This document shows positions 25,192 through 57,297 of a DNA stretch of 64,000 nucleotides, piece by piece. A program made the translations under genes and the position numbers. The notes under the pieces were generated by a model. That model worked only from the letters and a program-made list of their open reading frames with translations, was not told where the DNA came from and made no database searches. The DNA is from a virus, in IMG/VR virus record IMGVR_UViG_3300027319_000001; one strand, written 5' to 3'. Within the stretch, counting starts at the first letter, position 1, and every line of letters begins with the position of its first letter.

Positions 25192-25224
25192 AGTTGATAC
25201 GCGAGTTGCGCACGTAGTTGATAC
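25192..25224 (+). promoter_or_regulatory. two direct AGTTGATAC boxes abutting the first replication-module gene
   Basis: AGTTGATAC occurs at 25192..25200 and 25216..25224. The second copy ends 1 nt before GTG 25225. Confidence 0.5.
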
Positions 25225-26304
25225 GTGCTGGACACTCGGGCCGTCCCATCCGCACCAGATTGGATCGATGTGACCAAGTCAATCGTGTTCGCTGTCGCCG
25301 GGGGTGGCGACATCAAGCCCGAGACGGTCGAGTCGCTGCTTGACCACTTCCTTGAGGTAGACACGGACAACCCTCGTGATGTTGCCGCTGTCTACCTCCC
25401 TGCCGATGTCAGGCTGACCACTAGCGCCGTCCGTTACGCAGCCCGGTGGATGGATGACGTTGGCCTGCCCTACATCGCTGTCAGAGGTGATCGTCCCGGA
25501 CGTTTTGGCCGGGAGATCGCTGATGGGGCTCAGGAGGTCATCACCGGTGAGTCGGTCGTAGACGCACTGCGCTCCCACAAGGACGACGACGTCGACATCT
25601 ACCTCCTGCTTGCGTGGGGCGATGACCCTGAGCAGGCAGCAGACGTGGAGACAGAGGATCTCCTCACCAACGCGCACGAGTCCGGCATCACTGTGCTGGA
25701 TCTCAACGCCGGGCTTGATGAGATCGTTGTGGACGATGGATCCGAGGACCAGGATGACGAGCAGCCTTCGGAATTCTCGTCCGACGTAGACGAAGAACCT
25801 GGGCCGTCCGACGACAAGAGCGAAGCTCCTGACCTCCCTGAGCTGAACGAGGAGACCCAGGAGCTGGAGCCCACCGACGAGGCACAGGCCACGATCCGGC
25901 CGTCGGAGCCGACTGAAAAGGACGAGGCAGACGTCCCGGACCTGGCCACCACGCTGTCCTTTGTGTACCTGGCCATGTCCAGTCTGGACCGTGCGATTGC
26001 CGCACTGCGGATGGAACATCCGCGCTTCAGCCCGATTACCAGGGTGGTCCGGCACCACCTCCACCAGATGCTCAAGGACGACCTGCCGTCCACTGTGGAC
26101 GAGCTGGACAAGCTGATTGAGGAGACTCGCCCGAAGCTGCGTGGAAAGCCTCGCGACACCTCATCCGATGAGGTCAATGTCCTGATTGACCGGGACAAAA
26201 AGACCATTCGCCTCGCTGGCCGGGGCCGCCCTCGTAAGGGTGAGGTTCAGGAGCGCATGACACGCGCAGAATTCGAAAAGCTTGCCACCGACTGGGGGAG
26301 CTGA
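25225..26304 (+). CDS. highly acidic protein with C-terminal AT-hook-like motif
   Basis: 359-aa ORF. The central ~90 aa are D/E-rich (..DDGSEDQDDEQPSEFSSDVDEEPGPSDDKSE..), and GRGRPRKG lies near the C-terminus. The start is uncertain (GTG 25225 or GTG 25270). Confidence 0.6.
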   Translation: MLDTRAVPSAPDWIDVTKSIVFAVAGGGDIKPETVESLLDHFLEVDTDNPRDVAAVYLPADVRLTTSAVRYAARWMDDVGLPYIAVRGDRPGRFGREIADGAQEVITGESVVDALRSHKDDDVDIYLLLAWGDDPEQAADVETEDLLTNAHESGITVLDLNAGLDEIVVDDGSEDQDDEQPSEFSSDVDEEPGPSDDKSEAPDLPELNEETQELEPTDEAQATIRPSEPTEKDEADVPDLATTLSFVYLAMSSLDRAIAALRMEHPRFSPITRVVRHHLHQMLKDDLPSTVDELDKLIEETRPKLRGKPRDTSSDEVNVLIDRDKKTIRLAGRGRPRKGEVQERMTRAEFEKLATDWGS

Positions 26305-26479: not shown

Positions 26480-27547
26480 TTGGCCATCTCAATCATCACG
26501 GAAGTCTGGAAGAAGGCTCCCCGGGACATCAAAAACACCACACTTCTGGTGTTGCTGAAGCTGGCGGACAGCGCTTCCGAAGATTACCGGACAACATTCA
26601 TCGGTGTCGACCGGATCGCCAGGGAGGTCCGGGCGTCTAAGAAGACTGTCTACAACGCTCTGCGAACCCTCGAGGACCGGGGAATCATCGAAACGATCAT
26701 TGACGAGACTCCTCCAGGGCCGTATGAGTCTGCCGTCCGGTACATCACCCCGGCTGACACCTGGACTGAGCTCACAGAGCCGGACGAGGATGATGAGTTG
26801 GGATGCGTACCAACTGAGGAAAAAATTTCCTCAGTTGTGATGTCGGGTGACGGGAGTTGTGATGTATCAACTCCTGAGCGCGTACCAACTAGGGAAAAAA
26901 TTTCACCTAAACCGTCATATATAGATAGTTATATATCTTTGAGTTATCCCCCTTCGGGGGATAACTCTGTCGCGCCGGGGGCGCGACAGGGGCGCAAGCG
27001 CCGCAAGAAGAAGAAGGCCAAGGGGACTGGGCATGACCCCTACAACCCGGTTGAGAACCACCCGGATCTGATGGACCTGGTGGTCCGGGAAGAGCCTGAG
27101 CCGGAGCCCGAAACCCAGCATCGGTTCCAGATACCTGACCGGGATTCCTCCCAGGGGCTGGCCTACTACTTCACATTCAGGCTGGGGCCGGTACTGGGCA
27201 AGCTTGGCCAGATGGACCTTGCCAATCGCACCGCCCTGGCTCGGGCTTTCAGCCGCTGGCTCAAGTCCGGGCTCAGCCCGGACTACATCCGGAAGATGAT
27301 TGACGCCTACGCCAAAACCCCCGGATACCAGGCGGACGGGGTCACCCCTTGGAAGGACTTCTTGGCCAAACGGGCTCTGCTGCATAAGCACGTGGAGCGT
27401 GCCGAGCGTGAGCGGCTTATGGACGACCCTGCGGGCTACGAGGACCTGAAGTCCCAGCACGCGCCCTGGATTACTGAGAACGGAGAGTTTGACGAAGAGG
27501 CGTGGATGGCCTCCGTCATGGACGAAGTACGGAGGAAGGCCCGATGA
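26480..27547 (+). CDS. replication initiator-like protein (N-terminal winged-HTH)
   Basis: The N-terminus ..LLVLLKLADSASEDYRTTFIGVDRIAREVRASKKTVYNALRTLEDRGIIE is wHTH-like. It is followed by a DnaC-like loader and DnaB, and its linker region contains ori-like DNA. Confidence 0.6.
   Translation: MAISIITEVWKKAPRDIKNTTLLVLLKLADSASEDYRTTFIGVDRIAREVRASKKTVYNALRTLEDRGIIETIIDETPPGPYESAVRYITPADTWTELTEPDEDDELGCVPTEEKISSVVMSGDGSCDVSTPERVPTREKISPKPSYIDSYISLSYPPSGDNSVAPGARQGRKRRKKKKAKGTGHDPYNPVENHPDLMDLVVREEPEPEPETQHRFQIPDRDSSQGLAYYFTFRLGPVLGKLGQMDLANRTALARAFSRWLKSGLSPDYIRKMIDAYAKTPGYQADGVTPWKDFLAKRALLHKHVERAERERLMDDPAGYEDLKSQHAPWITENGEFDEEAWMASVMDEVRRKAR
26807..26988. other. candidate origin of replication embedded in the initiator gene
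   Basis: It contains 26-bp direct repeats, a 12-bp-arm palindrome, 11-bp repeats, a ~30-bp AT-rich patch and two GC hairpins. See the findings for coordinates. Confidence 0.5.
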
Positions 27548-39788: not shown

Positions 39789-39858
39789 AGTTGATACGTC
39801 GGTTGAGGCCATGCGGGTAGACATTTAACCTCTCTCCGCATGGCCTCAAGTATCAACT
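39789..39858 (+). terminator. large dyad (14-bp stem) flanked by inverted AGTTGATAC boxes, between RNR and RecA genes
   Basis: AGTTGATAC (39789) .. TTGAGGCCATGCGG (39803) .. CCGCATGGCCTCAA (39836) GTATCAACT (39850). There is no U-tract. Confidence 0.45.
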
Positions 39859-48235: not shown

Positions 48236-48360
48236 GCGTCTACAAGCAGCCTATTCCTGAAAATCGCCCGGATATGGCACCGGTCCGCCCTGAGGATGGT
48301 GACCAGGACGCTAAGGTTCAGGTGCGCCCCCTTCCTGAGTTCGACGAGAGGGGGACGTGA
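48232..48360 (+). CDS. hypothetical small protein (42 aa)
   Basis: The GTG start is coupled upstream, and the stop overlaps the endolysin ATG. Confidence 0.35.
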   Translation: MSVYKQPIPENRPDMAPVRPEDGDQDAKVQVRPLPEFDERGT

Positions 48361-50359: not shown

Positions 50360-51361
50360 ATGGCCTACCAGTCCCCAGATTACTATCTGAGAAAAGCCGC
50401 TGCGGCCACTCCTGATATTGTTCCGGAGCCCGGTCACAGTGGCTATTTCTCTTCCCCTACAGAGGGGCTGGACCCGGATCTTTTCATTGGTGATCGGATC
50501 CGGCTTGACGTGCGGGAGAAGATCATCGCCCCGCTGGACGCTTTCTTCCGGCAGCGCGGACTGAGTGACTGGGGCCGCTACACACGTGTGTGGCTCGCCG
50601 GTAGTGGGATCTCATATCAGTGGGACGCCGATCGTGGGAATGGCGATTTGGACGTCCTGATCGGTATTGATGCAGCTGAGCTGCGTCGTGTCGCGCCCCC
50701 CTTCCAGGGGCTGTCTGATACCGAGGCTGCCGACGTACTGAACAGCTGGCTCCGCCGTGACCTGTGGCCTCTGACGGCCCAGACCCGGATTGGGAGCAAG
50801 GTATACGAGGTCACGTACTACTGGAATCCGGGTGTCACTGACTCCCCAGGTGCCATCAGGAGCATCCGGCCGTATGCCGCCTATGACCTGACCACGCCGG
50901 GATGGGTCGTACGGCCGCCCAGGCTGCCGTCGGACCCGGCGCTGTTGTATCCCCGAGAGTGGCATCAGGCTATCCAGCGCGAGGTTCAGACGGCGAGAGA
51001 GATCTTGAGCCGATTCAATGCGGCTCGTGCGCAGGTGCTGTCAACCACTGGTCCGGCACAGACAAACGCCCTGACTCGGATGCGCCTTGCCGCTGCGCAG
51101 GCCGCCGCGCTCTATGACGACATCCATATGGGTCGCCGCGCTGCTTTTCGGCAGGGTGGTGAGGGATACCGCGATTGGGCGAACTTCCGCTGGCAGAGCC
51201 ACAAACGGTACGGCACCGCACAGGCTCTCGCGGCTGTCAGACGGCTGGCCGATGAGGCATCACAGCAGGCCAGCGCAGCACTCTACGGAGGTCCTGTGGC
51301 TGACGCTGAGGCGGCGCGTATAGCAGCTCTCCAGTGGACCAACGCTAGGGGGATGCTATGA
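50360..51361 (+). CDS. nucleotidyltransferase-fold (Pol-beta-type) protein
   Basis: WLAGSGISYQWDADRGNGDLDVLIGID fits the hG[GS]-x(9-13)-D-h-D-h NTase signature. Confidence 0.55.
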   Translation: MAYQSPDYYLRKAAAATPDIVPEPGHSGYFSSPTEGLDPDLFIGDRIRLDVREKIIAPLDAFFRQRGLSDWGRYTRVWLAGSGISYQWDADRGNGDLDVLIGIDAAELRRVAPPFQGLSDTEAADVLNSWLRRDLWPLTAQTRIGSKVYEVTYYWNPGVTDSPGAIRSIRPYAAYDLTTPGWVVRPPRLPSDPALLYPREWHQAIQREVQTAREILSRFNAARAQVLSTTGPAQTNALTRMRLAAAQAAALYDDIHMGRRAAFRQGGEGYRDWANFRWQSHKRYGTAQALAAVRRLADEASQQASAALYGGPVADAEAARIAALQWTNARGML

Positions 51362-51870
51362 GCGGTATCGCCGTGGTCACCATGGACGGCATCATCCGTG
51401 ATCCTGTCCATGACACGCTGATCACAAGCGGTCGTGATCTCGCCGTTGCGTTGAGCGCGGATTACCGCGTGGTATTTCTTGCGGACACGGATGATCACGA
51501 TCTGTGGGATTTGTGGTTGGCGCGCCATGATTTTACAGAGCACGCTTTTGTTGTTGAGCGCCGTCCTGAGGACCCAGAAGACACCGCAATCCGGCGTGTA
51601 CGGCAGATAGAGCGGTTGCGCGGTCAGGGTGCATCTGTAGAGCTGTTCATTGATTCCGATCCTGGCGTTATCGCCACTGTTATGCGTCTGGGCGTGCCCT
51701 GTCTCCTATACGTTCACCCTCAATACGCGCGCCCGGAATTCCGGCCGGATTATCAGGCAGAGATTCGTCCGTGGGACACGTTGGTGATGGAACTTAACCG
51801 GACTAAAGAACTGCGGGCGGCAGACCCACGATATAGGAGACCTAGTGTTCGACTTCAACGCATTGAATAA
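51358..51870 (+). CDS. HAD/NT5C-like protein with apparently substituted nucleophile
   Basis: The N-terminus VVTMDGIIRD contrasts with the canonical DMDGV. The C-terminal FIDSDPGVI..GVPCLLY resembles HAD motif IV. Confidence 0.35.
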   Translation: MSGIAVVTMDGIIRDPVHDTLITSGRDLAVALSADYRVVFLADTDDHDLWDLWLARHDFTEHAFVVERRPEDPEDTAIRRVRQIERLRGQGASVELFIDSDPGVIATVMRLGVPCLLYVHPQYARPEFRPDYQAEIRPWDTLVMELNRTKELRAADPRYRRPSVRLQRIE

Positions 51871-52681
51871 GACCGTAGACAGCAATATAGCTCGCGTTCA
51901 CGGCGGCTGGGGACGCTGGAACGACAAATTTGTTCGGAAGCAGCTTGACCGGTCCTTCTCCAGGATGAGGGAGAAGGCTCGTGCTGAGCAGCTGCGAAAG
52001 ACCTATGGCCCTAGCCAGGTAGCTGATCGTGTTTTCCGGACTGGCGCTGAGGGCGAGTACGCCCGCAATCGCCGTGTGACCTTCAAAGGGCCTTCCCAGG
52101 CTTCACAAATCGGTGGGATGAAAATCAACCGTTTGCAGTCCGCTGAGCCTGGGTCTATCAAGTCCACGAATCTGAGTAAGACGCCATCGACATACTACAC
52201 GCCTTCCGTGCGCGGTCCCCAGTTCGGGGGTAGCACGTACCCGGCGTTCCGTACCACGGGTTTGCCGTCTCCCAAGGGTGGGATGCCTCCCGCGAGGGAG
52301 AGCATCAGGGCTTACCAGGACCGAAGGCTGCGCTCGCGCACGCCAGCGCCGAAGAGCTGGCAGCAGACCGAACTTCCTATCCCTAAGGCTTCTCCAACGT
52401 CTAGAGGTACGCAGCTGGAGCTTCCTGTTGCCCGTAGGTCGAATCTGGTGCCGCAGTCGCGCTTTGAGGGCCGTTACGAGGGGCCTCCGGAGAACAAACG
52501 ACCTGGGCAGATGGCGCTGTTCCAGCCGTGGGCACAGCAGTCTCTGCCCATAATTCCTCACCGCGAGTCAACCTGGACGCCGCCTGAGCGCACCACACCC
52601 AAGACGCACCAGTACAAGATTCCGTACAAGGGCACTTACAAGGGTAATAAGCCTCCGCGCAAGCCACTGCCGCCCATGTAG
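51845..52681 (+). CDS. very basic, proline-rich, probably disordered protein
   Basis: 278 aa rich in R/K/P/S/T/Q, with few hydrophobic residues. GTG start. Confidence 0.5.
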   Translation: MFDFNALNKTVDSNIARVHGGWGRWNDKFVRKQLDRSFSRMREKARAEQLRKTYGPSQVADRVFRTGAEGEYARNRRVTFKGPSQASQIGGMKINRLQSAEPGSIKSTNLSKTPSTYYTPSVRGPQFGGSTYPAFRTTGLPSPKGGMPPARESIRAYQDRRLRSRTPAPKSWQQTELPIPKASPTSRGTQLELPVARRSNLVPQSRFEGRYEGPPENKRPGQMALFQPWAQQSLPIIPHRESTWTPPERTTPKTHQYKIPYKGTYKGNKPPRKPLPPM

Positions 52682-52747: not shown

Positions 52748-54238
52748 GTGCTGACCCTTTATTTTGGGGGAGCTGAAATCCCTGGTTGGCGGAAATTTCT
52801 CGCCGATCAGGGGGTCACACACGTATCGATGTCTTTCGTCGGTCTGCTGCGGCGGACACGTCTTGTGCGGCCGTGGCTGATTGATGAGAAATTCCCGGAA
52901 GACATGGCGATCTTTCTGGATTCTGGCGGTTACACGCTGAACAAGAATCCGGAGAAATACACGATTGAAGAGCTCCACGAAATGGCGCATAAGTACCGGG
53001 ATTTCGTGGAGATGAATTATGACCGCTTGGAAATGGTATCGGAGTTTGACGCCCTTGTCCTCGGTCAGGAGTGGATTCAGCGTGAGCGCGCCAGCTTCTG
53101 GGAGGGTCTTGGAGATAAGTGGCTGCCCATCTGGCACGCAGAGACGGGCATAGCGGAGCTGGAGCGTCTTGCCGCCACATACGGCCGTGTAGGCGTCCCT
53201 CAGACGTCTGTAGGCGGCCGGGACATTATCCCGGTACTCAACAGGCTGGCTCGTGATGGTGTGCGACTGCATGGCGTCGCCATGACCAAGACGACGCTTC
53301 TGGAAGAAGTTGCATTCGATTCCGTAGCGTCCACGTCTTGGCTCTCTCCCGCGCAATACGGGGATACTCAGATTTGGACCGGACACGAACTTAAACGCTA
53401 TCCCCGCAAATACAAGGAACAGGGGCGTAAAAGGCACCGCCAGCACCTCGCATCTCAGGGGTTCAACACCGAGGCGATTGAAGCAGATGACCATAACGAG
53501 GTGTTGCGTGTTGCCGTTTGGAGCTGGCAGCAGTACATCGCGCACCTGAATCGTGGGGGAGTAGTTAGTACATTGCGGAATAGGGATAATCCCGAAAATC
53601 GGGAAAACGAGCGCGCAGAAGTTGATACGCAGGTTTCCGAAACCAGTACCGAAGTATCAACTAGAAATCCGTTTCCGCGCGAGCGTCGGCAGCTTTTGCC
53701 GGGCGTCGTACTGGACGTCGTAAGCCGCTCTGAGCTGGGAGAAGACGGTCAACCGGTCCAACGAGAGGAACGCCGTGTCGGTGTAGATCGTATTGCTCTA
53801 CGCCAGTGTGATAGTTGCTACATTGCCAGCCGTTGCCCGGCGTTCGTGCCTCATGCCGAGTGTGGTTATGAGATCCCGGTACAGATAAAAACCCGGGAAC
53901 AGCTGGACGCGGCACGGCGCGCTGTCCTTGCCATGCAGCTGCAGCGCGTCATGTACATGCGGTTGGTGGAGGAGCTGGAAGGCGGTTATTCCGATCCGAA
54001 TCTCTCCAAAGAAATCGATCTGTTCAACCGCATGGCTACCCAGCTCTCAGAGGAAGACGCCGAGTCGGTTTCCATCAGCATAAAGGCTCGTGCTCGCTCC
54101 GATGGCGAGACCGGAATGATCGGCCGTCTGTTCGGCCGCGAGGCGGCAGAACAGGTTCGCGCGCTTCCTGAGACCGTGGAGTCGGACGATCTGCTTCAGC
54201 ACATGGGAGTTGTTGACGCTGAGGTAGTGGATCGCTGA
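52748..54238 (+). CDS. TGT/DpdA-like transglycosylase domain fused to a C-terminal Cys-containing helical domain
   Basis: IFLDSGGYTL compares with TGT TDSGGFQ, and RLHGVAMTK..VAFDSVASTSW compares with TGT LMGVG..DMFDCV. The C-terminal half carries CDSCYIASRC..HAEC. Confidence 0.5.
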   Translation: MLTLYFGGAEIPGWRKFLADQGVTHVSMSFVGLLRRTRLVRPWLIDEKFPEDMAIFLDSGGYTLNKNPEKYTIEELHEMAHKYRDFVEMNYDRLEMVSEFDALVLGQEWIQRERASFWEGLGDKWLPIWHAETGIAELERLAATYGRVGVPQTSVGGRDIIPVLNRLARDGVRLHGVAMTKTTLLEEVAFDSVASTSWLSPAQYGDTQIWTGHELKRYPRKYKEQGRKRHRQHLASQGFNTEAIEADDHNEVLRVAVWSWQQYIAHLNRGGVVSTLRNRDNPENRENERAEVDTQVSETSTEVSTRNPFPRERRQLLPGVVLDVVSRSELGEDGQPVQREERRVGVDRIALRQCDSCYIASRCPAFVPHAECGYEIPVQIKTREQLDAARRAVLAMQLQRVMYMRLVEELEGGYSDPNLSKEIDLFNRMATQLSEEDAESVSISIKARARSDGETGMIGRLFGREAAEQVRALPETVESDDLLQHMGVVDAEVVDR

Positions 54239-54246
54239 CCGGAAAA

Positions 54247-54290
54247 CGCTAGAAGCCCCGCGCCAAAAATCTGGCGTGGGGCTTCTAGCG
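54247..54290 (+). terminator. 19-bp-stem hairpin terminator
   Basis: CGCTAGAAGCCCCGCGCCA aaaatc TGGCGTGGGGCTTCTAGCG lies directly after the 54238 stop. Confidence 0.75.
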
Positions 54291-54491
54291 TACTTTGGCT
54301 ATTCCCATTCGGCGAAGAAGCGTATTAACGCCCCCGGTTATAATCGAAATTGTCCGAGAATTCGGCACGTGATTGGGGATTATGTGGCGGCTCGACGAAC
54401 TGCTCGACGAACTCTGCCGCATCGCCGCCGCGGGCCTCAGCGACGGAATCCTCACCTCCGCATTCGGTCACACATAAGTGAGAAGGAGACC

Positions 54492-56114
54492 ATGTCCCCC
54501 AGGAAGAAAAAGATCACCGAACAGGCGGCCCTGCTGGGCATGCCCGCCATGGCCGACCTGTACGACACCCTGTGGAAGGCCGCGAACAAGCTGCGTGGCT
54601 ACATGGACGCCGCACAGTACAAGGACTTCGTCCTGGGCCTGGTGTTCCTCAAGTACGTCTCGGACGCGTTCGAGGAGCGCCGCGAGGCCATCCGCGCGGA
54701 GATCCTGGCGCAGGGCATCCCCGAGTCCCGTCTCGACATGTTCCTCGACGACAAGGACGCGTGCATCGGCCACGGCGTCTTCTGGGTCCCGGAAGAGGCG
54801 CGCTGGTCGCACCTGGCTGCGCACGCCAAGAGCGACGGCATCGGCGAGCTCATCGACCGTGCCATGGACGCCATCATGAAATCCAACCCGTCGCTTGCTG
54901 GCGTACTGCCCAAGATCTTCAACCGGGACAACGTGGATCAGCGCCGTCTCGGCGAGCTGGTCGACCTCATCAGCGACGCCAGCTTCACCGGCCACGGCGA
55001 CAGGCCCGCCCGGGACGTGCTCGGCGAGGTCTACGAGTACTTCCTAGAGAAGTTCGCCCGCGCCGAAGGCCAGCGCGGCGGCGAGTACTACACCCCGCCC
55101 AGCGTGGTCAAGCTCCTGGTCCAGGTGCTGGAGCCGTACTCCGGCCGCGTCTACGACCCCTGCTGCGGATCAGGCGGCATGTTCGTGCAGGCCGAGAAGT
55201 TCGTGATCGCCCACCGCGGCATCCAGCACAAGGACGGCATCACCGTCTACGGCCAGGAATCCAACGAGCGCACCTGGCGGCTGGCGAAGATGAACCTCGC
55301 CATCCACGGCATCAGCGGCAACCTCGGCCCCCGCTGGGCGGACACCTTCCGCGAGGACAAACACCCCGACCTCAAAGCCGACTACATCCTCGCCAACCCG
55401 CCGTTCAACATGTCCGACTGGTCACGCACCGTGGACGACCCCAGGTGGCGCTTCGGCACGCCCCCGGCGAACAACGCCAACTTCGCCTGGCTGCAGCACA
55501 TCATTTCCAAGCTCGCCGAACGCGGCACCGCAGGCGTCGTGCTCGCCAACGGCTCCATGACCTCCATGAAGTCCGGCGAGGGCGAGATCCGCGCCGCCAT
55601 CGTCGAAGCCGACCTGGTCTCGTGCATGGTCGCACTGCCGCCGCAACTGTTCCGCACCACTCAGATCCCCGTCTGCCTGTGGTTCTTCGACAAGGACAAG
55701 AGCCCGCAGGGTGCCAAGCGGCTGGCAGACAGGCGCGGCGAGGTGCTGTTCATCGACGCCCGGAACATGGGCACGATGGTCGACCGCACCGAGCGCGTCC
55801 TCACTGACGACGACATCGCCCGCATCGCTGACACCTACCACGCCTGGCGGGGCACCGCCTCAGCCCGCGCCAAGAACCTGACGTACGAGGACGTGCCGGG
55901 ATACTGCTATTCAGCCACCCTCGAGGAGATCCGCCAGCACGACCACGTTCTGACCCCGGTCCGGTACGTCGGCGTGCCCGAGGTCGAGAACGACGATGAC
56001 GAGCCGATCACCGACAAGATCGCCCGGCTCGCCAAGGAGCTGTACGCCCACTTTGAGGAGTCCGCGCGGCTGGAGAAGGACGTGCGCGAGCAGTTGGAGC
56101 TGATCGATGGGTGA
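54492..56114 (+). CDS. hsdM: type I restriction-modification methyltransferase subunit
   Basis: RBS GAAGGAG precedes ATG 54492. It has an HsdM_N-like N-terminus (LWKAANKLRGYMDAAQYKDFVLGLVFLKYVSD), the AdoMet motif DPCCGSGGMF and the catalytic ANPPFN. Confidence 0.9.
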   Translation: MSPRKKKITEQAALLGMPAMADLYDTLWKAANKLRGYMDAAQYKDFVLGLVFLKYVSDAFEERREAIRAEILAQGIPESRLDMFLDDKDACIGHGVFWVPEEARWSHLAAHAKSDGIGELIDRAMDAIMKSNPSLAGVLPKIFNRDNVDQRRLGELVDLISDASFTGHGDRPARDVLGEVYEYFLEKFARAEGQRGGEYYTPPSVVKLLVQVLEPYSGRVYDPCCGSGGMFVQAEKFVIAHRGIQHKDGITVYGQESNERTWRLAKMNLAIHGISGNLGPRWADTFREDKHPDLKADYILANPPFNMSDWSRTVDDPRWRFGTPPANNANFAWLQHIISKLAERGTAGVVLANGSMTSMKSGEGEIRAAIVEADLVSCMVALPPQLFRTTQIPVCLWFFDKDKSPQGAKRLADRRGEVLFIDARNMGTMVDRTERVLTDDDIARIADTYHAWRGTASARAKNLTYEDVPGYCYSATLEEIRQHDHVLTPVRYVGVPEVENDDDEPITDKIARLAKELYAHFEESARLEKDVREQLELIDG

Positions 56115-57297
56115 GGCCGTAACGCTGGCTGACGTCTGCGAACTTATTGTCTGTAGTCATAGTACTCCTCCGGAGTGTCCCGCCGAGGAGGCTTACGGGT
56201 TCGCCGTTGGCACGCCAAATGTCCGTGACGGACGAATTGTTCTTGAATCCGCCAAACGAGTAAATCGCGAGACGTTCGCCACCTGGACCGCGCGTGCTGT
56301 ACCACAAGCTGGCGACTTGATCGTCACACGTAGGGGACCGGTAGGTCGAGTTGGGATAATTCCTGAAGGGGTGAAAATTTGCCTGGGGGCGAGAACCGTG
56401 CTTCTCAGAGCGAATGCGGAGATTGTTCACCCCCGTTTCCTGCACTATCTGCTGATGGGGCCTGACATGCAACATGCCATGCACGCCCTAAGCGGTGGAT
56501 CTACCGTTCTCAACCTTAAAGCAGAAGATTTCCGTAATCTCAAACTCCCGCCCCTCCCTTCCCTAATGCAGCAGCGAATGATTGGCGAGCTGCTCGGCGC
56601 GCTGGACGACAAGATCGCGGCCAACGAGCGGATCGCACGGGCCAGCCTCGACTTGGCGGACGCGCACTTTGAATTGGTCGCCCGCAATCTCGCATATAGC
56701 TCTGAAACGTTCGGAACGGTAGCTGAGGTGTTCGTCGGAGGTACACCACGGACCTCAGAGCCCGCGTACTGGGATGGATCGATTGCCTGGGCCACGCCAT
56801 CTGATGTCACTGGCCTGAGCGGACCCTATCTCTTCACCACGGCGAGAAAGATCACAGAGAAGGGCCTTACCCAGTGTGGTTCGCGGATCTACCCGCCTGG
56901 CTCAATCTTCATGACGTCGCGCGCGACGATCGGAGCCTTCGCGGTACCACAGATCCCGACAGCGGTGAGTCAAGGAATCATCGTCATCATTCCACGGCAG
57001 CCTGAAATGCGGTGGTGGTTGTTCCATGAAATGCGATCTCGGGTCGAGGAGATGCGTAGTCTCGCGAACGGCTCAGTTATCCTTGGACTGACTTGCGAGG
57101 ATTTCAAGGCCATGCGCGTCCGATTGGCCGAACCCGACGTGATCGCCCGCTTCTCTGCGCAAGTTGATCCTCTGCATAAGCGAGCAGCTAAGTGCGTCGA
57201 GGAGTCGTATGTCCTGGCTGAGCTTCGCGACACACTCCTGCCCAAGCTGATGTCCGGTGAGATCCGCGTACGAGACGCGGAGAAGGCGGCCGATTAA
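56107..57297 (+). CDS. hsdS: type I restriction-modification specificity subunit
   Basis: It overlaps the hsdM stop by 8 nt. It has two target-recognition halves separated by conserved helices (..QQRMIGELLGALDDKIAANERI.. and ..LAELRDTLLPKLMSGEIRV). Confidence 0.85.
   Translation: MGEAVTLADVCELIVCSHSTPPECPAEEAYGFAVGTPNVRDGRIVLESAKRVNRETFATWTARAVPQAGDLIVTRRGPVGRVGIIPEGVKICLGARTVLLRANAEIVHPRFLHYLLMGPDMQHAMHALSGGSTVLNLKAEDFRNLKLPPLPSLMQQRMIGELLGALDDKIAANERIARASLDLADAHFELVARNLAYSSETFGTVAEVFVGGTPRTSEPAYWDGSIAWATPSDVTGLSGPYLFTTARKITEKGLTQCGSRIYPPGSIFMTSRATIGAFAVPQIPTAVSQGIIVIIPRQPEMRWWLFHEMRSRVEEMRSLANGSVILGLTCEDFKAMRVRLAEPDVIARFSAQVDPLHKRAAKCVEESYVLAELRDTLLPKLMSGEIRVRDAEKAAD

What the first reader, a model, noticed from the sequence alone, without database searches (positions are those of the whole stretch)
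52748..54238. TGT/DpdA-like transglycosylase domain fused to an unrelated Cys-bearing C-terminal domain, with no visible preQ0 pathway
The first ~270 aa carry IFLDSGGYTL and RLHGVAMTK..VAFDSVASTSW. As I recall them, the two catalytic-Asp regions of tRNA-guanine transglycosylases are TDSGGFQ and LMGVG..DMFDCV. These features are shared by the DpdA DNA transglycosylases that insert 7-deazaguanines into phage DNA.

The protein continues for ~220 aa through a low-complexity linker into a domain with CDSCYIASRCPAFVPHAEC and predicted helices. That addition is not part of the canonical TGT or DpdA as I know them.

No folE, queD, queE or queC-like genes are visible in these 64 kb. The base donor would therefore have to be host-made, encoded outside the window, or different. 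The gene sits next to an orphan type I methyltransferase, so this corner of the genome may be a DNA-modification and anti-restriction island.
Basis: partly seen in the sequence, partly recalled or inferred. Interest (0 to 1): 0.6.

Follow-up and report, generated by a model that had tools for sequence, protein, structure and literature searches.

The report
DpdA-like enzyme missing its nucleophile
This phage gene belongs to a large two-domain branch of the DNA 7-deazaguanine transglycosylase (DpdA/TGT) family, but its lineage has lost both the catalytic nucleophile aspartate and every known source of 7-deazaguanine, so it probably no longer does the textbook reaction.

Summary
The ORF (52748-54238, +, 496 aa) and all quoted motifs are real. 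Residues 1-275 fold as a TGT/DpdA TIM barrel (VIA Z 16-17 to human, archaeal and bacterial TGT; 16.2 to DpdA 7UI4). The Cys-bearing C-terminal part is not a one-off fusion. It is the norm of a large family (PHROG 887; 1193 clusters at 50% identity) with four invariant Cys (C-x2-C-x5-C-x8-C) and no detectable relative among known folds.

The main correction is to the second "catalytic Asp". Alignment with proven DpdA1 (Iggy, Vid5) and with Bacillus phage BCD7-type relatives puts the nucleophile Asp (motif D-S-x-[ST]-W) opposite Ala194, not D191. This column holds Asp or Glu in 1 of 105 family members. The general-acid Asp58 and the guanine-edge residues Asp101 and His130 are kept.

- **Sister clade that keeps the Asp:** 6 of 6 sampled members sit beside preQ0 genes, a QueC-like gene or a preQ transporter.
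- **Asp-less actinophage clade:** none of these genes in this 77-kb record or in three complete relatives (GiJojo, BRock, pSt2308). Two lysogen hosts lack QueC.

Most likely this is a neofunctionalised DpdA derivative that still binds a guanine in nucleic acid, with unknown chemistry. I class it as a new variant of a known kind.

The parts
52748..54238 (+). DpdA-like two-domain gene (496 aa, P0001)
   Evidence: ORF and translation. PHROG 887 matched over the full length, E 1.7e-64. 341 and 1193 homologues.
52748..53572 (+). N-terminal TGT/DpdA-fold (beta/alpha)8 barrel, residues 1-275
   Evidence: AF2 pLDDT about 97. Foldseek hits to TGT at E 3e-6. VIA Z 16-17 with rmsd 3.5 A over about 260 residues; DpdA 7UI4 Z 16.2. 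Direct tblastn hits from Vid5 DpdA (E 1.7e-5) and Iggy DpdA (E 8e-4) on the 77-kb record.
52919..52921 (+). Asp58 codon (LDSGGY), equivalent of the general acid/base Asp (bDpdA D95, E. coli TGT D89)
   Evidence: Aligned to TDSGGFQ by hhalign and to FLDSGAFS of DpdA1. D or E in 34 of 34 close relatives and 77% of the wide family.
53048..53050 (+). Asp101 codon (EFDA), probable equivalent of the base-recognition Asp (bDpdA D130)
   Evidence: Invariant in 34 close relatives. The equivalence is inferred from strand order together with the D130 role stated in PMC10164549. In A5 it lines up with the Asp of the BCD7-type proteins, while the DpdA1 rows are ambiguous in this region.
53135..53137 (+). 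His130 codon (IWH), probable equivalent of bDpdA His181
   Evidence: Aligns with the CFH of DpdA1. Present in 33 of 34 close relatives.
53327..53329 (+). Ala194 codon, at the position of the canonical nucleophile Asp (DpdA1 C-D-S-S-S-W; BCD7-type x-D-S-T-T-W)
   Evidence: Alignment A5. The spacing fits on both sides: +18 from the HG motif and -11 to the invariant Gly205, as in DpdA1 and E. coli TGT. The family column is S43/A19/G14/T14, with D or E in 1 of 105. In close relatives it is A28/S5/G1.
53363..53365 (+). Asp206 codon (YGDT), an acidic residue conserved across the two-domain family
   Evidence: D or E in 102 of 105. Invariant in close relatives. It is E in all BCD7-type proteins and T or S in DpdA1. 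An intein is inserted at this site in P0142.
53561..53701 (+). Disordered, poorly conserved linker, residues 272-318
   Evidence: pLDDT below 50. Variable and gapped in A1.
53620..53662 (.). Inverted pair of the 9-mer AGTTGATAC (53620-53628 +, 53654-53662 -) inside the linker-coding DNA
   Evidence: 7 copies in the window against 0.18 expected. Other copies lie at 25192, 25216, 26864, 39789 and 39850.
53702..54235 (+). C-terminal domain, residues 319-496: beta-hairpin, Cys4 knuckle, long helical hairpin and terminal helices
   Evidence: AF2 model of the domain alone, pLDDT 86. No Pfam family in 105 members. No PDB or Atlas relative beyond a generic helical hairpin.
53807..53863 (+). Cys354-x2-Cys357-x5-Cys363-x8-Cys372 metal-binding motif
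   Evidence: All four Cys are invariant in 105 diverse homologues. The same spacing occurs in 71 of 75 BCD7-type proteins. Inteins are inserted at Cys357 in P0123, P0144, P0179 and P0238.
51358..51870 (+). P0268, a 170-aa protein whose gene lies just upstream of the DpdA-like gene in this clade
   Evidence: Homologues lie just upstream of the DpdA-like gene in GiJojo, BRock, the Nonomuraea prophage, the Terracoccus prophage and a distant metagenomic phage. In this window, GiJojo, BRock and Nonomuraea, one further gene (the P0269-type) lies between them. No family hit.
50360..51361 (+). P0267, a 333-aa nucleotidyltransferase-fold protein that often accompanies the pair
   Evidence: GSG...DLDV motif. 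Atlas look-alikes are named nucleotidyltransferase, with NTP_transf_2 in 12-23% of members. Homologues are present in 4 of 5 contexts.
51845..52681 (+). P0269, a 278-aa basic, Pro/Arg/Lys-rich low-complexity protein between P0268 and the DpdA-like gene
   Evidence: Translation. No family hit. No tblastn match in the other loci.
54276..56114 (+). Type I methyltransferase subunit HsdM
   Evidence: N6_Mtase E 2.6e-107 and HsdM_N E 6e-28.
56107..57297 (+). Type I specificity subunit HsdS
   Evidence: Methylase_S, two stretches, E 2e-21. No HSDR_N match in the record.

Best explanation
The gene encodes a member of a large, uncharacterised two-domain branch of the phage DpdA/TGT superfamily. It has a TGT-fold barrel, a disordered linker and a Cys4/helical-hairpin domain.

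The ancestral form of this branch, seen in Bacillus phage BCD7-type phages, keeps all three active-site Asp and sits at the end of a folE-queC-queE-queD cassette. By association it is very probably a 7-deazaguanine transglycosylase.

The actinophage clade to which this window belongs has lost the nucleophile Asp, which is Ala194 here. It has also lost every recognisable source of 7-deazaguanine. It keeps under strong constraint:
- the general-acid Asp58
- the stacking Tyr62
- the guanine-edge residues Asp101 and His130
- the family-specific acids Glu10, Glu99 and Asp206
- a basic helix (residues 216-231)
- the Cys4 domain

I therefore read it as a neofunctionalised DpdA derivative. It still binds nucleic acid, most likely DNA, using the basic helix and the metal-bound C-domain, and it still takes a guanine into the old pocket. 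It can no longer run the covalent Asp double-displacement that inserts preQ0.

The most likely activity is a changed guanine-directed reaction. This could be hydrolytic excision, or exchange through another carboxylate such as Asp206 or Glu10. The conserved neighbours P0268 and the nucleotidyltransferase-fold P0267 may take part.

**Shown:** the fold, the architecture, the residue pattern, and the gene-context correlation.
**Inferred:** nucleic-acid binding, guanine binding, and the nature of the chemistry.
For: **Fold and homology**
- VIA gives Z 16-17 to TGTs and 16.2 to DpdA 7UI4 over residues 1-275. The top 50 Foldseek hits are almost all TGT.
- Homology chain: P0001 to BCD7 gp21 across both domains (E 7e-20 and 4e-12). 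BCD7 to DpdA1 of Vid5, Iggy and 9g-like phages. Vid5 and Iggy DpdA also hit the gene directly.

**Residue mapping**
- DpdA1 S-C-D-S-S-S-W and BCD7-type x-D-S-T-T-W align to S-V-A194-S-T-S-W.
- Column 194 holds D or E in 1 of 105 members.
- D58, D101, H130, H175 and D206 are invariant or nearly so in 34 close relatives.
- PMC10164549 states that D95, D130 and D256 are invariant in TGT and DpdA, and that D95A and D256A abolish exchange.

**Context correlation**
- Members that keep the Asp have a deazaguanine source next door in every case sampled. BCD7, P0438, P0459 and P0455 have full cassettes. BS162P1 has a QueC-like gene. phiFN37 has a Vut_1 transporter.
- Asp-less members have none. No QueC, QueD, FolE or Vut_1 is found in this record, GiJojo, BRock or pSt2308. 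None lies within 10 kb in three further loci.
- Two lysogen hosts lack a real QueC. Only about 14 of 121 genomes of that order have one.

**Signs of continued function**
- Strong conservation across the family.
- Inteins inserted exactly at D206|T207 and at Cys357.
- Conserved neighbours P0268 and P0267 across members only about 30% identical.
Against: - No residue-level structural superposition was available, so A194 = nucleophile rests on sequence alignment and motif spacing. hhalign against a low-diversity TGT profile aligned only the DSGG region, at low probability.
- In the most distant family members even D58 and H130 drift (Y, H or N at position 58 in about 20%). That pattern fits a non-catalytic binder as well as a changed enzyme.
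- Asp206 is also present (as Glu) in the Asp-keeping sister clade, so it is not a newly gained replacement.
- No experiment on any family member was found.
- The record is only about 78% complete.
- Whether the substrate is DNA or tRNA is not established for any two-domain member. BRock carries 29 tRNA genes (PMC7453282).
Confidence: 0.45

Rival explanations
1. It is a catalytically dead pseudo-enzyme. The barrel only binds nucleic acid, or a flipped guanine, and the C-domain oligomerises it. It would serve a structural, regulatory or anti-defence role by shielding or occupying DNA. A comparison, from my own knowledge, is the non-catalytic QTRT2 subunit of eukaryotic TGT.
For: - The nucleophile Asp is absent in 104 of 105 members.
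- In distant members the general-acid Asp and His130 also decay.
- No base donor pathway is present.
- The gene sits at the end of the late/lysis block rather than among the nucleotide-metabolism genes.
- The residues invariant across the whole family are mostly structural (G8, W198, four Cys).
Against: - In the clade of this window, D58, D101, H130 and D206 are invariant or nearly so. A mere scaffold would not be expected to keep them.
- Inteins target D206|T207, as they usually target active sites.
- No catalytic paralogue that could partner it exists in the record.
Confidence: 0.28
2. It is still a working 7-deazaguanine (preQ0-type) DNA transglycosylase. It would use a base salvaged from the host or the environment, with another carboxylate (D191, D206 or E10) acting as nucleophile.
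For: - TGT/DpdA fold with a retained guanine pocket.
- The sister clade is wired to preQ0 genes.
- P0001 itself has D191 three residues upstream.
- 'Singleton DpdA' phages are known, some relying on host supply (PMC6884629).
- About 12% of genomes in the order of one lysogen host do have QueC.
Against: - D191 is not conserved even among close relatives (23 of 34; S, A, G or T in the rest). By the AF2 secondary structure it sits at the start of beta8, not at the catalytic end.
- No QueC, QueD, FolE or preQ transporter is found in three complete relatives.
- Two lysogen hosts lack QueC.
- D256A abolishes exchange in bacterial DpdA (PMC10164549).
Confidence: 0.17
3. It acts on RNA, either phage or host tRNA, rather than on DNA. 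It would be a divergent tRNA-guanine-directed enzyme of large actinophages that carry many tRNA genes.
For: - The fold is that of tRNA-guanine transglycosylases.
- Relatives such as BRock carry 29 tRNA genes.
- Database labels read 'queuine tRNA-ribosyltransferase'.
Against: - The closest sequence relatives with experimental backing are DNA-modifying DpdA1 enzymes (Iggy, Vid5).
- No tRNA gene occurs in the 77-kb record.
- The same loss of nucleophile and of base donor applies here too.
- Database labels are transferred names, not tests.
Confidence: 0.1

Closest known systems
Bacillus phage BCD7 gp21-type two-domain DpdA-like proteins (uncharacterised; 75 relatives found)
   Same: - Same architecture: TGT-fold barrel, linker, then a C-x2-C-x5-C-x8-C plus helical domain.
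- Shared E10, E-x-D, HG, S-T-x-W and YG[DE] motifs.
- Both domains align to P0001.
- A SpoVS gene lies upstream in both lineages.
   Different: - The BCD7 type keeps the nucleophile Asp (x-D-S-T-T-W).
- It is 650-780 aa long, with a much longer linker.
- It lies directly after folE-queC-queE-queD.
- The window's clade has Ala, Ser, Gly or Thr at that position and no such genes.
Phage DpdA1 (Enterobacteria phage 9g, Pseudomonas phage Iggy, Pantoea phage Vid5), DNA preQ0/dADG/dG+ transglycosylases
   Same: TGT-fold barrel. Shared LDSG, H-G and S-x-S-W...G motifs. Direct BLAST similarity.
   Different: - DpdA1 is about 310 aa with a single domain.
- It has the nucleophile Asp (C-D-S-S-S-W).
- It lacks E10 and D/E206 and has no Cys4 C-domain.
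- It is embedded in a preQ0 cassette.
Bacterial DpdA (Salmonella Montevideo, PDB 7UI4)
   Same: Fold match with Z 16.2, rmsd 3.7 A, 260 residues. Equivalents of D95, F99, D130 and H181 are present.
   Different: - Bacterial DpdA has D256 as nucleophile.
- It has a structural Zn site, CXCX2CX22H, in Ins8 of the barrel.
- It needs the ParB-like ATPase DpdB (PMC10164549).
- Here there is no Cys in the barrel, and no dpdB gene was seen among the genes that were annotated. No dedicated search for dpdB was run.
tRNA-guanine transglycosylases (bacterial TGT, archaeal ArcTGT, human QTRT1)
   Same: Best structural matches, Z 16-17. The DSGG motif aligns.
   Different: - No Pfam TGT (PF01702) match even at E 10.
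- No nucleophile Asp and no Zn site in the barrel.
- The TGTs are 370-580 aa, with a different N-terminal lid and different C-terminal domains.
Cap10, the TGT-like protein of type IV CBASS (PDB 9NTN)
   Same: Fold match with Z 16.0. It is an example of a TGT-fold protein recruited to a non-tRNA substrate.
   Different: It works with a QueC-like Cap9 on a protein substrate, according to the entry title. No QueC-like partner is present here.

Membership tests
TGT/DpdA superfamily | (beta/alpha)8 barrel of the TGT type | tested here: met
   AF2 model with pLDDT about 97 for residues 1-270. The top 50 Foldseek hits are almost all TGT. VIA Z 16-17; DpdA 7UI4 Z 16.2.
TGT/DpdA superfamily | General acid/base Asp in a DSGG-type motif (bDpdA D95, E. 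coli TGT D89) | tested here: met
   D58 lies in LDSGGY. It aligns to TDSGGFQ and to FLDSGAFS of DpdA1.
TGT/DpdA superfamily | Base-recognition Asp and His (bDpdA D130, H181) | tested here: met
   H130 aligns with the CFH of DpdA1 in A5. D101 lines up with the Asp of the BCD7-type proteins there, but its match to DpdA1 and to bDpdA D130 is inferred from strand order, because the DpdA1 rows are ambiguous in that region. Both residues are conserved in 33-34 of 34 close relatives. The mapping to bDpdA numbering is inferred from PMC10164549.
TGT/DpdA superfamily | Nucleophile Asp at the end of beta8 (bDpdA D256, Z. mobilis TGT D280, E. coli D264) | tested here: not met
   Ala194 occupies the aligned position. 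The spacing agrees with DpdA1 and E. coli TGT. The column holds D or E in 1 of 105 members. This rests on sequence alignment, since no residue-level superposition was possible.
TGT/DpdA superfamily | Structural Zn site CXCX2CX(22-25)H in the insertion after beta8 | tested here: not met
   There is no Cys anywhere in residues 1-353. A different C-x2-C-x5-C-x8-C cluster lies in the separate C-domain.
TGT/DpdA superfamily | Match to the Pfam TGT model PF01702 | tested here: not met
   No hit at E up to 1 on the protein or up to 10 on the whole record.
Phage 7-deazaguanine DNA-modification system (DpdA plus a base supply) | Genes for preQ0 synthesis (FolE, QueD, QueE, QueC) or a precursor transporter in the phage, or the pathway in the host | tested here: not met
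   None in the 77-kb record. None in the complete relatives GiJojo, BRock and pSt2308. Two lysogen hosts lack a real QueC. The record is incomplete and the true host is unknown.
Phage 7-deazaguanine DNA-modification system (DpdA plus a base supply) | 7-deazaguanine present in virion DNA | not testable with these tools
   This needs LC-MS/MS of virion DNA. No published analysis of any family member was found.
PHROG 887 / two-domain DpdA-like family | Full-length match covering both the barrel and the Cys4/helical C-domain | tested here: met
   E 1.7e-64 over profile positions 11-506 of 509. Four Cys are invariant in 105 members.
[4Fe-4S] DNA-enzyme cluster motifs (C-X2-C-X5-C of EndoIII/MutY and AddB/Cas4, recalled from knowledge) | Cys spacing and fold of a known Fe-S cluster domain | tested here: inconclusive
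   C354-x2-C357-x5-C363 matches the recalled spacing. However, the domain has no fold or Pfam relative. Whether the metal is Zn or Fe-S cannot be told from sequence.

The most novel reading that the evidence does not exclude
The Asp-less actinophage clade may be a new kind of guanine-directed nucleic-acid enzyme that evolved from DpdA. It would use a different catalytic carboxylate (Asp206 or Glu10) and a metal-bound C-domain. Together with the conserved neighbours P0268 and the nucleotidyltransferase-fold P0267, it would install or remove a base that is not a 7-deazaguanine. That would be a previously unknown phage DNA (or tRNA) modification pathway, widespread in large phages of Actinobacteria.
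Probability: 0.25. Interest if true: 0.85.

Novelty: new variant of a known kind. Interest (0 to 1): 0.6.

Why it matters
DpdA is currently treated as a signature gene for 7-deazaguanine in phage DNA (PMC10516641). 'Singleton DpdA' phages of Actinobacteria, whose hosts make no deazaguanine, were flagged as an open puzzle in 2019 (PMC6884629).

This gene represents a very large family (over 1000 clusters at 50% identity) that carries the DpdA label in databases. In it, the nucleophile Asp and the base supply appear to have been lost together, while the rest of the pocket stays conserved.

If this holds, annotation-based predictions of deazaguanine-modified genomes are wrong for this clade. The clade would also offer a natural case of an enzyme fold being repurposed. 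The sister clade (BCD7 type) would be a fifth, two-domain form of phage DpdA, with a Cys4 domain replacing the canonical Zn site.

Isolated phages are available (BRock, GiJojo, LuckySocke, Alone3, pSt2308 and BCD7), so the question can be tested directly.

Tried and rejected
- **Family and sequence searches.** Pfam and NCBIfam scans of the whole protein and of each half found nothing useful. phmmer and profile hmmsearch against PDB sequences gave only noise.
- **Profile-profile comparison.** hhalign of the family (A2, A5) against a TGT alignment (A4) aligned only the DSGG region, at low probability. The TGT alignment was of low diversity (83-97% identity), so this is a weak test.
- **C-domain.**
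  - Foldseek against PDB gave no match below E 0.25.
  - VIA wide gave a best Z of 8.4, to a generic helical hairpin.
  - The Atlas shape search returned only the family's own clusters.
  - The Atlas feature search scored 0.81 or lower.
  - Pfam on 105 C-domains returned noise.
- **Small-terminase hints.** A BFVD hit to a Gordonia phage 'terminase small subunit', T4 and T6 small-terminase helical hairpins at Z 6.6, and T5_Terminase_small at 0.79 were considered. I rejected them as generic helical-hairpin similarity or transferred annotation.
- **Complex prediction of P0001 with P0268.** No verdict, score 0.00. This counts neither for nor against binding.
- **Prophage search.** A search for P0001 homologues in 400 genomes of the class found only the known one. 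A presence/absence cross-tabulation against QueC was therefore not possible.
- **Near-identical phage DNA.** megablast found none.
- **Literature.** Searches for BCD7 or BRock together with deazaguanine found nothing. The supplements of PMC10516641 are not held.
- **D191 as nucleophile.** Rejected because of poor conservation and its position at the start of beta8.
Full report
**1. What is there**

The ORF at 52748-54238 (+) starts with GTG, preceded by an AGGGG ribosome-binding-like site. It encodes 496 aa.

The window is the reverse strand of bases 1-63999 of a 77,024-bp IMG/VR virus record, rated 78% complete and linear. The record encodes a myovirus-type phage:
- terminase, portal and major head genes on the 13 kb outside the window
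- tail sheath, baseplate and tape-measure-like genes
- a replication and nucleotide block: initiator, DnaB, primase, helicase, Pol I, RNR, RecA-like, Cas4-like exonuclease and ThyX
- a CHAP endolysin at 48357

After the endolysin come three genes without family hits (50360-52681), then the gene in question, then HsdM and HsdS. GC content is about 58%. There are no tRNA genes.

**2. Family**

Pfam and NCBIfam see nothing. PHROG 887, labelled 'queuine tRNA-ribosyltransferase', matches end to end (E 1.7e-64, profile positions 11-506 of 509), and each half matches its own half of the profile.

A word-indexed search found 341 homologues, nearly all 480-510 aa with no Pfam domain. They include prophage-borne copies in Nonomuraea, Streptosporangium, Microbispora, Streptomyces and Terracoccus. 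An exhaustive search found 1193 clusters at 50% identity.

Named phages with full-length homologues at about 39% identity are the Streptomyces phages BRock, GiJojo (annotated 'dpdA-like tRNA-guanine transglycosylase'), LuckySocke, Alone3 and pSt2308. Bacillus phage BCD7 matches at 26%. The two-domain layout is therefore the norm of a big family, not a local fusion.

**3. N-domain**

An AlphaFold2 model from a 105-sequence alignment gives pLDDT about 97 for residues 1-270. It shows eight beta/alpha units, followed by a disordered linker at residues 272-318.

Foldseek against the PDB returns almost only tRNA-guanine transglycosylases in the top 50, at E about 3e-6, with Cap10 among them. VIA-align gives the following matches over residues 1-275:

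| Target | Z |
|---|---|
| Human TGT | 17.0 |
| Archaeosine TGT | 16.9 |
| Z. mobilis TGT | 16.4 |
| Bacterial DpdA 7UI4 | 16.2 |
| Cap10 | 16.0 |

BFVD matches include many phage 'queuine tRNA-ribosyltransferase' (DpdA) models.

Sequence links also exist. BCD7 gp21 aligns to both domains of P0001. The BCD7 barrel in turn hits the DpdA of Pantoea phage Vid5, Pseudomonas phage Iggy and 9g-like coliphages. Vid5 and Iggy DpdA hit the gene directly in the 77-kb record, at E 1.7e-5 and 8e-4. Iggy is experimentally dPreQ0-modified (PMC10484667, abstract).

**4. Active site**

PMC10164549 gives these roles for bacterial DpdA:
- D95 is the general acid/base.
- F99 and L236 stack on the base.
- D130 and H181 read the Watson-Crick edge.
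- D256 is the nucleophile.

The paper states that the three Asp are invariant in TGTs and DpdAs, and that D95A and D256A abolish exchange.

Alignment A5 contains P0001 and relatives, BRock, BCD7, the Bacteroides phage BS162P1 N-gene, Fusobacterium phage phiFN37, and Iggy and Vid5 DpdA. In it:
- LDSGGY lines up with FLDSGAFS, giving D58 and Y62.
- IWH lines up with CFH, giving H130.
- LHGVAMT lines up with VHGFGLT.
- The beta8 motif reads S-C-D-S-S-S-W in DpdA1, x-x-D-S-T-T-W in the BCD7 type, and S-V-A-S-T-S-W in P0001.

D101 (EFDA) lines up with the Asp of the BCD7-type proteins. The DpdA1 rows are ambiguous in that region, so its match to bDpdA D130 is inferred from strand order.

The Asp therefore falls on Ala194. 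The spacing agrees on both sides. Position 194 is 18 residues after the Gly of the H-G motif and 11 residues before the invariant Gly205. The same spacing holds in DpdA1, and in E. coli TGT from G245 through D264 to G275.

It is present in only 32 of 105 members and 23 of 34 close relatives.

Column 194 reads S43/A19/G14/T14, with one acidic residue in 105. In the close clade, E10, D101, H175 and D206 are invariant, D58 is D or E in 34 of 34, and H130 is present in 33 of 34. The pocket is thus kept while the nucleophile is cleanly missing.

**5. Sister clade and context**

A search with BCD7 gp21 found 75 proteins of 650-780 aa, some carrying inteins. Every one in which the motif could be read has D-S-T-T-W...Y-G-E. 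Of the 75, 71 carry the same C-x2-C-x5-C-x8-C cluster.

The gene contexts separate the two clades:

| Clade | Member | Deazaguanine-related neighbours |
|---|---|---|
| Asp kept | BCD7 | FolE, QueC, QueE and QueD directly upstream |
| Asp kept | Metagenomic P0438, P0459, P0455 | Same full cassette directly upstream |
| Asp kept | BS162P1 (split form) | QueC-like gene next door |
| Asp kept | phiFN37 (single-domain) | Vut_1 queuosine-precursor transporter next door |
| Asp lost | This 77-kb record | No QueC, QueD, FolE or Vut_1 |
| Asp lost | GiJojo, BRock, pSt2308 (complete genomes) | No QueC, QueD, FolE or Vut_1 |
| Asp lost | Three further loci | None within 10 kb |

The two lysogen genomes, Nonomuraea typhae and a Terracoccus, have only sub-threshold PP-loop hits to QueC. 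About 14 of 121 genomes sampled from that order have a real QueC.

A SpoVS gene lies a few kb upstream in both lineages. This suggests a shared ancestry of the region, with the preQ0 cassette lost in the actinophage line.

In place of the cassette, the Asp-less clade carries other conserved neighbours:
- P0268 is a 170-aa protein just upstream of the DpdA-like gene in 5 of 5 contexts, including one whose DpdA-like protein is only 30% identical. In this window, GiJojo, BRock and Nonomuraea, a further gene of the P0269 type lies between P0268 and the DpdA-like gene.
- P0267 is a nucleotidyltransferase-fold protein, present in 4 of 5 contexts.

**6. C-domain**

Folded alone (pLDDT 86), residues 312-496 form a long beta-hairpin, a Cys knuckle, a helical hairpin of about 60 residues, and two short helices. 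The four Cys are invariant in 105 sequences.

No Pfam family, PDB fold or Atlas cluster other than the family itself matches.

Canonical TGT and DpdA hold a structural Zn through CXCX2CX22H inside the barrel's last insertion (PMC10164549). This barrel has no Cys at all. The Cys4 module may be a relocated structural metal site. The C-X2-C-X5-C spacing, as I recall it, also resembles the [4Fe-4S] motifs of EndoIII/MutY and AddB/Cas4. This could not be decided.

A conserved basic helix (ELKRYPRKYKEQGRKRHR, residues 214-231) fits nucleic-acid binding.

Inteins sit at D206|T207 (P0142) and at Cys357 (P0123, P0144, P0179, P0238). This marks both motifs as functionally central.

**7. Reading**

The fold, the homology chain and the context of the sister clade make family membership secure. 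Two defining features fail in this clade: the nucleophile Asp and the barrel Zn site. The base supply is also missing.

I therefore do not file the gene as a working 7-deazaguanine transglycosylase. My readings, in order of weight:
- **0.45:** a DpdA derivative with retained guanine pocket and nucleic-acid binding but changed chemistry
- **0.28:** a non-catalytic binder
- **0.17:** a still-canonical DpdA using salvage and another carboxylate
- **0.10:** a tRNA-directed role

The 2019 survey already noted singleton DpdAs in phages of Mycobacterium, whose hosts lack the pathway, and asked whether they had diverged in function (PMC6884629). Neither this two-domain family nor the loss of the nucleophile is mentioned in the papers I could read.

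**8. Limits**

- No residue-level structural superposition could be obtained.
- The TGT profile used for hhalign was shallow.
- The record is incomplete and its host is unknown.
- Context was sampled for a handful of members only.
- No experimental data exist for any member of the family.

Noticed in passing
window 25192-25224, 26864-26872, 39789-39858, 53620-53662: The 9-mer AGTTGATAC occurs 7 times against 0.18 expected. Two direct copies lie just upstream of the ORF at 25225. One copy lies inside the replication-initiator-like gene (26480-27547). One inverted pair lies in the RNR/RecA-like intergenic gap, and another inverted pair lies inside the disordered-linker coding part of the DpdA-like gene. 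It looks like a binding site for a phage regulator or initiator. An earlier first-reader note (e1-3685749) had spotted the last pair.
   Followed up: partly
window 50360-51870: A nucleotidyltransferase-fold protein (P0267, GSG...DLDV motif) and a 170-aa protein (P0268) lie just upstream of the DpdA-like gene, with P0269 in between. P0268 has an MDG motif that resembles a HAD motif I lacking its first Asp. Its GiJojo homologue is annotated 'hydrolase'. Both are conserved next to the DpdA-like gene across very divergent phages. Their function is unknown.
   Followed up: partly
window 54276-57297: A type I methyltransferase pair HsdM plus HsdS, with no HsdR N-terminal domain found anywhere in the 77-kb record. 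It is probably a phage self-methylation module. It is absent at this position in GiJojo, BRock and the prophage relatives.
   Followed up: partly
L004:8022-10694 (-), outside the window: The large terminase ORF is 890 aa, and its PHROG matches cover only residues 456-877. Two HNH/endonuclease VII-like genes follow it before the portal gene. This may be an intein or an extra N-terminal domain. It was not examined further.
   Followed up: no
L013:7013-8645 (Bacteroides phage BS162P1): Here the two domains of the family are annotated as two separate adjacent genes: a 275-aa barrel and a 251-aa Cys/helical domain. This is either a natural split or a frameshift or annotation break.
   Followed up: no
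proteins P0123, P0142, P0144, P0179, P0238 and P0402, P0408, P0419 and others: Both clades of the family repeatedly carry LAGLIDADG inteins. The mapped insertion points are D206|T207 and Cys357.
   Followed up: partly
L002, L003, L018, L021-L023: A SpoVS-family gene lies a few kb upstream of the DpdA-like gene in both the actinophage loci and the BCD7-type loci, together with a PDDEXK_15 and a signal-peptidase-like gene in the latter. This is conserved synteny between phages of different host phyla.
   Followed up: no
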